Virus record (IMG/VR): IMGVR_UViG_3300050158_000039
Location: 28,621 to 92,620 of that record
Origin: a virus
Length of the DNA: 64,000 bases
Strand: one strand, 5' to 3'
Below are positions 9,147-9,508 of this stretch, piece after piece; the stretch's first letter is position 1; each line of letters begins with the position of its first letter. The notes under the pieces are model-generated. The model saw only the letters and a list, made by a program, of their open reading frames with translations. It was not told where the DNA came from and searched no databases. The translations under genes and the position numbers were made by a program.

Positions 9147-9274
9147 GTTGCACAAGTTTTTGTTTGGACTTTCGCGTCTACCAATTTCGCCACCTAATGT
9201 TGCCATTAGGGCAGGACTCGAACCTGCACAAGTTTGCACTTAATAGTTTTTGAAGAAGTCTTGCACTACGCAAC
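9147..9274 (-). ncRNA. YrlA-like stalk RNA copy C (circularly permuted tRNA-like head, Leu-type D arm)
   Basis: Order is T arm, CCTAAT-GGCAAC-ATTAGG closed acceptor, D arm GCGAAATTGGTAGACGC; closed by GTTGC/GCAAC; motif at 9252-9274. Confidence 0.75.
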
Positions 9275-9281
9275 AACAAAT

Positions 9282-9358
9282 TGGTACTCCTGGGGGGATT
9301 TGAACCCCTCGTTCCCACCTTGAAAGGGTGATGTCCTAACCAGTTAGACGACAGGAGC
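9282..9358 (-). tRNA. tRNA-Glu(TTC)
   Basis: Cloverleaf, loop CTTTCAA, CCA end. Confidence 0.9.
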
Positions 9359-9363
9359 AGAGT

Positions 9364-9508
9364 AGCAGAGATCAGAGCGTAAAGGCACTTTTTTGAGGCG
9401 GCTGTCCTACCACTAGACGACATCCGATACAATTTAACATCGGAAGGTGGGAATCGAACCCACGTAAGCTGCTTGGGTATGAAGAAATCCTTCACTACGC
9501 AACTGCTA
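9364..9508 (-). ncRNA. YrlA-like stalk RNA copy D (circularly permuted head, Glu/Asp-type D arm)
   Basis: T arm GTGGG/CCCAC precedes the closed acceptor and D arm GTC-TAGTGGTAG-GAC; motif at 9481-9503; TGAAGG/CCTTTA pairing. Confidence 0.7.

What the first reader, a model, noticed from the sequence alone, without database searches (positions are those of the whole stretch)
9147..9508. Two circularly permuted tRNA-like heads (copies C and D), the first transcript from a strong sigma70 promoter
Seen: both read T arm, then acceptor stem closed by a loop (CCTAAT-GGCAAC-ATTAGG; CTTCCGA...TCGGATG), then D arm. C has a Leu-type D loop and an AAGT-GCAA-ACTT arm. D has a Glu/Asp-type D loop and a split GCCGC/GCAGC anticodon stem. 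TTGACA-17-TATACT (9515-9543) would start transcription at copy D. Known: this permutation is the YrlA architecture and also that of two-piece tmRNA, which this phage encodes. Inference: expressed early by host RNA polymerase, and possibly opened at the acceptor loop by the same processing as the tmRNA.
Basis: partly seen in the sequence, partly recalled or inferred. Interest (0 to 1): 0.78.

Follow-up and report, generated by a model that had tools for sequence, protein, structure and literature searches.

The report
Phage Y RNAs with permuted tRNA
Two ~146-base genes in a giant phage's tRNA cluster encode small RNAs shaped like a tRNA written back-to-front on a conserved stalk; they are an uncatalogued variant of a known class (Y RNAs, partners of the Ro60 protein), built into a tRNA operon.

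Summary
On the minus strand, C (9134-9279) and D (9363-9508) each read T arm, 7-bp acceptor stem closed by a loop, then D arm, on a 5-bp anticodon-like stem and a long stalk formed by the RNA's two ends. A real tRNA-Glu gene lies between them. The stalk (6-bp closing helix, UUGCGUAG, ..UACUUC.., then GAC-UUUAWCU) defines a family of 63 copies. Its helices, the closed acceptor stem and the tertiary 15-48 pair all covary.

Stalk RNAs co-occur with Ro60 (TROVE) genes: 15 of 24 stalk-bearing viral records against 2 of 61 without (p=8e-9). In 12 of 15 records they lie within 1.5 kb upstream on the same strand. All 5 bacterial genomes with the stalk also have TROVE. C and D are therefore YrlA-type Y RNAs, a known kind, but Rfam's YrlA model scores them at only about 21 bits.

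No Ro60 gene lies in this 183-kb record, which is 52% complete. The closest complete relative has orthologues of C and D plus Ro60.

The sigma-70 promoter in front of D is credible. Opening at the acceptor loop is not supported: C is capped by a GCAA tetraloop, and D's orthologues have short loops or no acceptor hairpin.

The scan has reported similar RNAs before, in this genome and in others.

The parts
9515..9543 (-). Sigma-70-type promoter TTGACA-17-TATACT. The -35 hexamer lies inside the 3' stalk strand of the preceding family member E (9526-9667). The predicted start is about 9507.
   Evidence: 11 of 12 positions match; one of only 6 such sites in the 183-kb record, against 2.7 in shuffles.
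9363..9508 (-). Unit D, 146 nt: a Y-RNA-like stalk carrying a permuted tRNA-like head with a Glu/Asp-type D arm.
   Evidence: (model R1; D was a seed sequence). Orthologues are L214:1180-1318 and L199:2443-2584; L091:8590-8711 is an orthologue without the acceptor hairpin.
9495..9508 (-). D stalk, 5' strand: closing helix P1 (UAGCAG, 9508-9503) followed by the conserved UUGCGUAG (9502-9495).
   Evidence: P1 is 95.9% paired across 63 copies, and 5 of its 6 pairs change on both sides.
9447..9472 (-). D: 3' strand of the anticodon-like stem (GCAGC), a 4-nt variable loop UUAC, and the T arm GUGGG-UUCGAUU-CCCAC.
   Evidence: G15-C48 pairing is kept.
9421..9446 (-). D: closed acceptor stem CUUCCGA / UCGGAUG, 7 bp with one U.U mismatch, and a 12-nt loop.
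9398..9420 (-). D: U8-C9, D arm GUCU-AGUGGUA-GGAC, A26, and the 5' strand of the anticodon-like stem (GCCGC).
9363..9385 (-). D stalk, 3' strand: CCUU-UACGC, the 8-nt bulge UCUGAUCU, and P1 3' strand CUGCUA.
9282..9358 (-). tRNA-Glu(UUC) gene with encoded CCA, 4 nt after D and 2 nt before C. It is not part of the family, but it probably sets the ends of D and C through tRNA processing.
   Evidence: Rfam tRNA 52.9 bits.
9134..9279 (-). Unit C, 146 nt: a Y-RNA-like stalk carrying a permuted copy of a class II tRNA-Leu body.
   Evidence: (seed). Orthologue L214:930-1083. The head is closest to the phage's own four tRNA-Leu genes.
9211..9247 (-). C: 3' strand of the anticodon-like stem (ACUAU), variable-arm hairpin AAGU-GCAA-ACUU, and T arm GCAGG-UUCGAGU-CCUGC.
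   Evidence: The 19 bases through the T arm are identical to tRNA-Leu(GAG) at 11189-11272.
9193..9210 (-). C: closed acceptor stem CCUAAUG / CAUUAGG, 7 bp, capped by a GCAA tetraloop.
9168..9192 (-). C: U8-G9, Leu-type D arm GCG-AAAUUGGUAGA-CGC, G26, and the 5' strand of the anticodon-like stem (AAAGU).
   Evidence: 24 of 27 bases are identical to tRNA-Leu(GAG).
9134..9156 (-). C stalk, 3' strand: CUUG-U-GCAA, the bulge CUUUAUCU, and P1 3' strand CAACAA.

Best explanation
C and D are two paralogous small non-coding RNAs of the Y RNA class, YrlA type.

Anatomy. Each is about 146 nt. The 5' and 3' ends pair into a stalk made of:
- a 6-bp closing helix (P1);
- the conserved 5' strand UUGCGUAG;
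- an 8-nt 3' bulge of consensus (C)UUUAWCU;
- a second helix (P3);
- an A-rich internal loop.

The stalk runs into a 5-bp anticodon-like stem. That stem carries a complete tRNA body lacking only the anticodon loop: variable region, T arm, 7-bp acceptor stem closed by a loop, and D arm. The order on the strand is therefore circularly permuted.

Shown here: the anatomy, its covariation, the tRNA-type tertiary pair, and the genomic linkage of the stalk to Ro60 genes.

Inferred:
- The stalk is the Ro60-binding handle. The 5' UUGCGUAG would be a variant of the published GNCGAAN(0-1)G motif.
- The tRNA-like elbow is displayed to a tRNA-recognising partner.
- The particle acts as known Ro60/Y RNA particles do, as a gate and tether that couples Ro60 to an exoribonuclease such as host PNPase. 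In a phage that makes about 40 tRNAs, the likely substrates are structured RNAs, probably tRNAs.

Expression (inferred): host RNA polymerase starts at about 9507 from the near-consensus promoter and makes a D - tRNA-Glu - C (and further) precursor. RNase P cleavage at tRNA-Glu +1 leaves D with a 4-nt tail. Trimming of the tRNA's 3' end frees C.

C's head is a permuted copy of the phage's own tRNA-Leu. D's head has a Glu/Asp-type D arm. The paralogues therefore present different tRNA identities.
For: Anatomy and covariation:
- sequence anatomy and coordinates.
- across 63 copies, P1 is 95.9% paired, P3 81.6% and the T arm 99%. 310 cells change on both sides, against 91 in shuffles. Slid controls are 39-47% paired, against 89.5% for the structure.
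- the closed acceptor stem pairs at 6.4 of 7 within units and 3.1 of 7 across units.
- compensatory anticodon-like stems in D's orthologues.
- the 15-48 pair covaries in 16 of 18, and U8 is present in 18 of 18.
- RNAalifold on an alignment not fitted to my model recovers the helices.

Link to Ro60:
- TROVE is present in 15 of 24 stalk-bearing viral records and 2 of 61 without (Fisher p = 7.6e-9). All 6 stalk-bearing records that are at least 90% complete have it.
- the nearest stalk RNA lies within 1.5 kb upstream, on the same strand, in 12 of 15 records.
- 5 of 5 bacterial genomes with the stalk have TROVE. In one the RNA and the gene are adjacent on the same contig.
- the Nocardia copies hit Rfam YrlA at 43-48 bits (E about 1e-7).
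- the closest complete relative, G004 (350 kb), is collinear with this record around the array. It carries orthologues of C and D and a 571-aa TROVE+VWA protein.

Expression: (promoter). A promoter 5-7 nt upstream of the first unit recurs at L198:7078, L056:10661 and L218:13194.

Literature:
- PMC4201824: YrlA architecture, Ro60 motif, phage YrlAs.
- PMC12135203: a phage Ro60 binds phage Y RNAs and host PNPase.
Against: - No Ro60 gene in the 183-kb record by Pfam TROVE six-frame search, by Pfam on 40 of its ORFs, including all of 400 aa or more except four of about 1000 aa or longer, by tblastn with the G004 protein, or by an HMM built from 14 phage TROVE proteins.
- No Ro60 gene in the partial relatives G001-G003, G059, G069 and G071 either. 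All of these records are 10-68% complete.
- This record ends about 35 kb short of where Ro60 lies in G004, but synteny breaks down there, so loss of Ro60 in this clade is not excluded.
- Rfam YrlA scores are far below the gathering score: 21.3 and 20.5 bits against 69. Tandem tRNA junctions score as high.
- The stalk motif differs from the published GNCGAA motif at two positions.
- Nothing here shows that the RNAs are made or bound.
Confidence: 0.7

Rival explanations
1. Ro60-independent tRNA decoys or adaptors. In this clade the stalk has been kept but Ro60 lost. The RNAs would work alone or with another phage protein, soaking up or recruiting enzymes that recognise the tRNA elbow or a particular tRNA identity, such as host tRNA-directed defence nucleases, modification enzymes or synthetases.
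For: - No TROVE gene in this record or in six partial relatives.
- The heads are identity-specific: C matches the phage's tRNA-Leu genes, with the T-arm stretch 19 of 19 identical to tRNA-Leu(GAG).
- The units sit inside a tRNA array next to tRNA-repair genes: a T4 Rnl1-like ligase and a CCA-adding enzyme.
Against: - Every stalk-bearing record that is at least 90% complete has Ro60.
- All the TROVE-negative records are 68% complete or less.
- C and D lack an anticodon loop, which is the usual target of anticodon nucleases.
- The stalk sequence motifs are as conserved here as in Ro60-encoding phages, which argues for the same ligand.
Confidence: 0.15
2. D, but not C, is opened by RNase P in its 12-nt acceptor loop and acts as a two-piece RNA with a free tRNA-like acceptor end that receives CCA. 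M. smegmatis YrlA does this, and the idea echoes two-piece tmRNA maturation. This is a variant of the best explanation, not an alternative identity.
For: - D has a 7-bp acceptor stem, the feature that PMC4201824 links to RNase P cleavage of M. smegmatis YrlA, and a large loop.
- The phage encodes a CCA-adding enzyme and a permuted tmRNA.
Against: - D's orthologues have a 5-nt loop, a GAAA tetraloop or no acceptor hairpin, so opening is not a conserved requirement.
- There is a U.U mismatch in the stem, and no CCA is encoded after the 3' strand.
- C is capped by a GCAA tetraloop.
Confidence: 0.1
3. Circularly permuted tRNA genes that mature into working tRNAs. The ends would be joined, the stalk removed like an intron, and the acceptor loop opened.
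For: - Permuted order with all four tRNA stems present.
- An RNA ligase gene lies in the window.
- Permuted tRNA genes exist in the red alga Cyanidioschyzon merolae (my own knowledge, not checked here).
Against: - There is no anticodon loop. The anticodon-like stem opens into a conserved stalk shared with 73-nt copies that have no tRNA body at all.
- Acceptor stems are capped by stable tetraloops or are absent in orthologues.
- No discriminator-CCA is encoded.
- The stalk tracks Ro60 genes.
- ARAGORN and Rfam call no tRNA at C or D.
Confidence: 0.03
4. Decayed junctions of tandem tRNA genes or recombination debris with no function of their own.
For: - The Rfam YrlA model scores real tandem-tRNA junctions in this array as high as C and D. 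PMC4201824 warns about dimeric tRNAs.
- Folding energies are not better than shuffles.
Against: - Orthologues exist in a phage with only 40-69% protein identity.
- Every helix and a tertiary pair covary.
- The acceptor strands pair with each other, which unrelated neighbouring tRNAs would not do.
- Conserved stalk motifs flank the head.
Confidence: 0.02

Closest known systems
YrlA (Y RNA-like A; Rfam RF02553) of S. Typhimurium, M. smegmatis and Ro60-encoding mycobacteriophages (Chen et al. 2014, PMC4201824)
   Same: - Order on the strand: stalk 5' strand, short anticodon-like stem, T arm, acceptor-like stem closed by a loop, D arm, stalk 3' strand.
- 15-48 covariation.
- A conserved purine-rich 5' motif in the stalk.
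- Family members lie just upstream of Ro60 genes.
- Several Y RNAs per genome, including short ones without the tRNA body, like YrlB.
   Different: - The stalk signature is UUGCGUAG ... UACUUC ... GAC-UUUAWCU, not GNCGAAN(0-1)G.
- Rfam's model gives 20-21 bits against a gathering score of 69. It reaches that score for none of the family copies in the 17 viral loci searched at gathering threshold.
- C and D lie inside a tRNA operon, far from any Ro60 gene seen.
- C carries a class II variable arm and copies the phage's own tRNA-Leu.
- Acceptor stems are a full 7 bp and often tetraloop-capped.
Thermus phage phiLo Yrl1/Yrl2 with phiRo60 (PMC12135203)
   Same: Phage-encoded Y RNAs next to a phage Ro60. 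The particle recruits host PNPase, which is the best experimental precedent for the mechanism proposed here.
   Different: Those RNAs were picked by a CGAA motif and a stem-bulge-stem shape. The term 'tRNA-like' occurs nowhere in the paper's text.
Two-piece (circularly permuted) tmRNA, which this phage also encodes (window 53895-54245)
   Same: The gene order of a tRNA-like domain is circularly permuted, so T arm and 3' acceptor strand precede the 5' acceptor strand.
   Different: - tmRNA is cut into two pieces, has a free alanine-accepting CCA end and a tag reading frame, and has no D arm proper.
- C and D keep a closed acceptor stem, have a D arm, no reading frame and a Ro60-type stalk.
Circularly permuted tRNA genes of Cyanidioschyzon merolae
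   Same: The 3' half of a tRNA is encoded before the 5' half.
   Different: Those mature through a circular intermediate into ordinary tRNAs with an anticodon loop. C and D have none, and the junction is a conserved protein-linked stalk.
Deinococcus radiodurans Yrn1 (PMC4201824)
   Same: A Ro60-bound Y RNA with tRNA-like features that tethers Ro60 to PNPase.
   Different: Its T and D elements run in the opposite orientation relative to the ends, with an anticodon-arm-like hairpin between them instead of an acceptor-like one.

Membership tests
YrlA-type Y RNA | tRNA-like domain in the order T arm, acceptor-like stem-loop, D arm, with tRNA tertiary signatures (U8, G18G19, T-loop, 15-48 pair) | tested here: met
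   For C and D: U8; A15-U48 in C and G15-C48 in D; GG in the D loop; UUCGA T loops.
YrlA-type Y RNA | 5' and 3' ends pair into a stem that carries the Ro60-binding motif GNCGAAN(0-1)G near the 5' end | tested here: inconclusive
   The terminal stem is present and covaries. The 5' motif is UUGCGUAG: the core GCG-W-A-G resembles the published motif but does not match it (PMC4201824).
YrlA-type Y RNA | Encoded next to a Ro60 (TROVE) gene | tested here: not met
   - For this locus: no TROVE in the 183-kb record, which is 52% complete.
- For the family: met. 12 of 15 records have a copy within 1.5 kb upstream.
- The complete relative G004 has Ro60 and orthologues of C and D.
YrlA-type Y RNA | Reaches the Rfam RF02553 gathering score (69 bits) | tested here: not met
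   C 21.3 bits, D 20.5 bits. The Nocardia family members reach 43-48 bits.
YrlA-type Y RNA | Bound by Ro60 in vivo or in vitro | not testable with these tools
   Needs co-immunoprecipitation or gel shift.
Canonical tRNA | Cloverleaf in normal order with a 7-nt anticodon loop and a free acceptor end | tested here: not met
   ARAGORN and Rfam tRNA make no call at C or D. There is no anticodon loop and the acceptor stem is closed.
Circularly permuted tRNA gene | Both halves rejoin to give an anticodon loop, and the acceptor end is opened with discriminator and CCA | tested here: not met
   No anticodon loop sequence. C has a tetraloop cap. Four orthologues have no acceptor hairpin.
Two-piece tmRNA | Alanine-type acceptor with G3-U70, a tag reading frame and pseudoknots | tested here: not met
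   - The only tmRNA-family matches at gathering score lie at 53895-54245.
- At C and D, tmRNA models match only the T arm (13.8 bits).
- Position 3-70 is U-A in C and G-C in D.

The most novel reading that the evidence does not exclude
The phage, and many other tRNA-rich phages, keeps a panel of Ro60-handle RNAs. Each displays the body of a different tRNA: Leu in C, a Glu/Asp-like form in D, and normally ordered or anticodon-tipped forms in sister copies. The panel would be made from the same operon as the real tRNAs. Its members would act as identity-specific decoys or adaptors in the fight over tRNAs, either shielding phage tRNAs from host tRNA-directed defences or steering a Ro60-exonuclease particle to particular host or damaged tRNAs.
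Probability: 0.15. Interest if true: 0.8.

Novelty: new variant of a known kind. Interest (0 to 1): 0.5.

Why it matters
- Y RNAs with tRNA-like domains are known, but what the tRNA mimic is for is still open.
- This family gives natural variation that bears on that question. The same stalk carries a permuted tRNA-Leu body, a Glu/Asp-like body, bodies with or without the acceptor hairpin, normally ordered tRNAs, or no body at all.
- The family lies inside tRNA operons of phages that also carry tRNA-repair enzymes.
- The acceptor hairpin can be lost while the T/D elbow is kept. This points to the elbow as the functional surface.
- The stalk signature defined here finds Ro60-linked RNAs that the Rfam YrlA model does not report at its threshold, in at least 20 viral records and 5 bacterial genomes.
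- It offers a simple marker for annotating these RNAs, and a matched set of RNAs plus a Ro60 protein (from the complete relative) for binding and structural work.

Tried and rejected
- Rfam YrlA scores as evidence: rejected. Tandem tRNA junctions in the same array score 27 bits, higher than C and D.
- Single-sequence folding energy: not significant.
- First collection scan with a 15-base pattern: mostly chance hits, with 3 real loci among 78.
- Relatives found through the neighbouring 194-aa protein (phrog_11543): 80 loci, but only three records carried the stalk, so that protein is not its partner.
- Looking for Ro60 in this record: Pfam six-frame search, Pfam on 40 ORFs, tblastn and a phage-tailored HMM were all negative.
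- The 543-aa protein beside the short stalk RNAs near the record's start (L087:3083-4714): no Pfam or PDB sequence match, only PHROG 2319 of unknown function. Its ESM Atlas neighbours are unnamed viral clusters, and no orthologue turned up in the parts of G004 compared. It was not pursued as a Ro60 stand-in.
- Single-protein search for relatives of the G004 Ro60 in viral contigs: found only itself.
- The GUUGCGUAG motif as a promoter or ribozyme core: dropped once its 3' partner strand and covarying closing helix were found.
- The 105-aa ORF 9178-9495 (-): rejected as a gene, because it runs across a bona fide tRNA-Glu.
- No protein-RNA complex prediction was possible with the tools available.
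Full report
**Setting.** The window is bases 28621-92620 of a 183-kb viral record that CheckV rates 52% complete. The phage is T4-like: it has Gp23 capsid, Gp20 portal, tail sheath and T4-type terminase genes. ARAGORN tRNA genes on the minus strand, and Rfam also finds a GOLLD RNA and a permuted tmRNA. The finding lies in the densest part of the tRNA array.

**The observation.** I read the minus strand and parsed it by script.

C contains, in order:
- a variable-arm hairpin AAGU-GCAA-ACUU
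- a T arm GCAGG-UUCGAGU-CCUGC
- a 7-bp acceptor stem CCUAAUG/CAUUAGG capped by GCAA
- U8-G9
- a Leu-type D arm

D contains, in order:
- a 4-nt variable loop
- a T arm GUGGG-UUCGAUU-CCCAC
- a 7-bp acceptor stem CUUCCGA/UCGGAUG with one U.U mismatch and a 12-nt loop
- U8-C9
- a D arm GUCU-AGUGGUA-GGAC

In both, five bases before the variable region pair with five bases after position 26. This forms an anticodon-like stem: ACUAU/AAAGU in C and GCAGC/GCCGC in D, each with one mismatch. No anticodon loop closes this stem.

**The stalk.** A motif GUUGCGUAG recurs six times on the minus strand between 8400 and 10210. Looking for its partner, I found that the six bases ending in its first G pair with six bases that follow a conserved 3' element, (C)GAC-UUUAWCU. 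This closing helix sets the units at 9134-9279 (C) and 9363-9508 (D).

It also defines sister units:
- F (10093-10210)
- E (9526-9667)
- B (8793-8911)
- A (about 8345-8475)
- two 73-74-nt copies without any tRNA body near the start of the record (L087:695-767 and 1083-1156)

I built a covariance model from 11 copies (R1). It found 63 copies in this record and 19 other viral records.

Pairing in that set:

| Helix | Cells paired | Pairs changed on both sides |
|---|---|---|
| P1 (closing) | 95.9% | 5 of 6 |
| P3 (second stalk helix) | 81.6% | 6 of 6 |
| T arm | 99% | 4 of 5 |

Overall, 89.5% of cells pair, against 39-47% when the partners are slid by 1-3 columns. Because that alignment is fitted to my model, I also ran RNAalifold on a plain MAFFT alignment of seven permuted units. 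It recovered P1, P3, the T arm, the base of the acceptor stem and the D stem, and 20 of its 25 pairs show compensatory changes.

**The permuted head is a selected structure.** I anchored only on the T arm and on a D arm found independently downstream.
- 13 units have a linker long enough for an acceptor hairpin. Their two 7-nt strands pair at 6.4 of 7 within a unit and 3.1 of 7 between units. Nine are perfect, and their sequences are unrelated.
- The tertiary Levitt pair covaries: A15-U48 in nine units and G15-C48 in seven, out of 18. U8 is invariant.
- D's anticodon-like stem shows compensatory changes in its orthologues: AUGGC/GCCGU, GCGGU/ACCGC and GCAGU/ACUGC.

These results exclude chance and exclude decayed tandem tRNAs.

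**Identity of the heads.**
- C's head is closest to the phage's four tRNA-Leu genes. Against tRNA-Leu(GAG) at 11189-11272, 24 of 27 bases through the D arm and 19 of 19 through the T arm are identical. C is therefore a permuted tRNA-Leu body.
- D is not specifically close to any tRNA of this phage. 'Glu/Asp-type' describes only its D arm.

**What the stalk is linked to.** Earlier notes of this scan suggested a Ro60 link. I tested this independently.

| Group of viral records | With TROVE gene (Pfam PF05731) |
|---|---|
| Stalk-bearing | 15 of 24 |
| Stalk-bearing and at least 90% complete | 6 of 6 |
| No stalk: related phages | 1 of 49 |
| No stalk: records that only matched the search pattern by chance | 1 of 12 |

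- Fisher's test on 15 of 24 against 2 of 61 gives p = 7.6e-9.
- The nine stalk-bearing records without TROVE are all 10-68% complete.
- In 12 of the 15 records with both, the nearest stalk RNA lies within 1.5 kb upstream of the TROVE match on the same strand. This is the arrangement described for yrlA/yrlB and rsr (PMC4201824).
- A scan of one genome per prokaryote species found the stalk in five genomes, and all five have TROVE. About 5% of bacteria do (PMC4201824). In one of them the RNA and the gene are adjacent on the same small contig.
- The two Nocardia loci hit Rfam YrlA at 48 and 44 bits, with E of about 1e-7 and 1e-6. This ties the family to YrlA proper.

**Why Rfam alone does not settle it.** Rfam's YrlA model gives C and D only 21.3 and 20.5 bits against a gathering score of 69. 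It gives tandem tRNA junctions in this array up to 27 bits. The Rfam hit is therefore not evidence in itself, and the family is in effect uncatalogued.

**Is there a Ro60 here?** Not in the DNA available.
- The Pfam six-frame search was negative.
- Pfam scans of 40 ORFs found none. These cover every ORF of 400 aa or more except four of about 1000 aa or longer.
- tblastn with the relative's Ro60 was negative.
- An HMM built from 14 phage TROVE proteins gave a best E of 0.58.

The closest complete relative, G004 (350 kb, terminal repeats), is collinear with this record over the array and about 45 kb around it, at 40-69% protein identity. It carries:
- orthologues of C (L214:930-1083), D (L214:1180-1318), E and F
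- a 571-aa TROVE+VWA protein
- a 69-nt stalk-only RNA about 1 kb upstream of that protein

This record ends about 35 kb short of the corresponding position. Synteny is lost there, so the Ro60 gene may lie in the missing half or may have been lost.

**Expression.**
- TTGACA-17-TATACT at 9543-9515 is the only promoter-like site in 8300-10400.
- It is one of six sites in the whole record with at least 11 of 12 matches, against 2.7 expected. Three of the six head RNA-gene blocks on the correct strand, including a perfect consensus in front of the tRNA at 25619.
- The predicted start, about 9507, is the first base of D's closing helix.
- The -35 hexamer is formed by the 3' stalk strand of unit E.
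- Promoters placed 5-7 nt before the first unit recur in other phages: L198:7078, L056:10661 and L218:13194.
- D's orthologues instead follow a tRNA or another RNA gene. The promoter is therefore a feature of this phage and not of D as such.
- The tight D - 4 nt - tRNA-Glu - 2 nt - C packing implies that RNase P and tRNA 3'-end processing set D's 3' end and C's 5' end. This is inference.

**Opening at the acceptor loop.**
- PMC4201824 shows that M. smegmatis YrlA, which has a 7-bp acceptor stem, is cut by RNase P and receives CCA. The idea therefore has a precedent.
- In this family the acceptor stem is often capped by a 4-base loop: GCAA in C, and GAAA, CUUG, UUCG and AUCU elsewhere.
- Four D-type orthologues join the T arm to the D arm with only six bases.
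- The conserved element is thus the T/D elbow on an anticodon-like stem, not a free acceptor end. D alone remains a candidate for cleavage; I put that at about 10%.

**Mechanism.**
- Best supported: C and D are Ro60-handle RNAs that display a tRNA elbow.
- By analogy with D. radiodurans and S. Typhimurium (PMC4201824) and with Thermus phage phiLo, whose Ro60 binds two phage Y RNAs and host PNPase (PMC12135203), they would gate Ro60 and tether it to an exonuclease or to a tRNA-recognising partner.
- The A-rich internal loop between stalk and head is conserved among D's orthologues: CUCAAAAAAG, UUCAAAAAG and CACAAAAAG. It is a candidate site for that partner.
- None of this binding is shown here.

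**Comparison and novelty.** Phage YrlA-type RNAs are known, so the kind is not new. The new points are:
- the distinct stalk signature, which escapes the Rfam model;
- placement inside a tRNA operon, punctuated by real tRNAs;
- a head that is a recent permuted copy of the phage's own class II tRNA-Leu;
- natural variants with and without the acceptor hairpin.

The scan has already reported related RNAs in this genome (the seven-copy family and copies A, B and G) and in other phages. This report adds the specific anatomy of C and D, the quantified Ro60 linkage, and the negative result for Ro60 in this record.

Noticed in passing
window 8912-9133 (-): About 220 nt between C and B carry no call from ARAGORN or Rfam. 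The stretch ends in a good T arm (GGUGGG-UUCGAUC-CCCAC, about 8945-8928) just before unit B. It may be another tRNA-derived RNA or a tRNA with a large insertion.
   Followed up: no
window 10093-10210 (-), L091:3913-4028, L212:12658-12775: F-type family members have a T arm followed by a hairpin whose loop, GCUGGGUGCYA, is conserved in sequence across phages. They have no D arm. This may be a different kind of elbow or D-loop mimic.
   Followed up: partly
window 9526-9667 (-), L107:2984-3142, L214:499-743: E-type members place a weak T arm (AUUUG-UUCGAUC-CAAAU) directly after the stalk motif. A 12-bp 'acceptor' stem and two more hairpins follow. The G004 copy carries a 100-nt insertion.
   Followed up: no
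window 25544-25657 (-): A tRNA with anticodon CUA (amber suppressor type; ARAGORN labels it Pyl; Rfam tRNA 76.6 bits) sits behind the only perfect TTGACA-17-TATAAT site in the record.
   Followed up: no
window 27476-27910 (-): A GOLLD RNA (Rfam 218.8 bits) lies directly next to tRNA-Pro and tRNA-Gly genes.
   Followed up: no
window 20355-21491 (-) and L087:4770-5933 (-): A T4 Rnl1-type RNA ligase and a CCA-adding enzyme: tRNA-repair functions close to the tRNA and Y-RNA arrays.
   Followed up: no
L249 and L316 (contig CAZFPB010000002.1, 330 kb, labelled a Pseudobdellovibrionaceae MAG): This contig carries several stalk RNAs among tRNA genes plus a TROVE gene. It looks like a jumbo-phage genome binned into a bacterial MAG.
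   Followed up: no
L209 (record G076) and record G033: Two phage records have a TROVE gene but no stalk RNA detectable with model R1. Their Y RNAs, if any, use another handle.
   Followed up: no
L200:1766-1921 (-): One GC-rich copy contains a second GUUGCGUAG...UACUUC motif nested inside the first. It is possibly two fused units.
   Followed up: no
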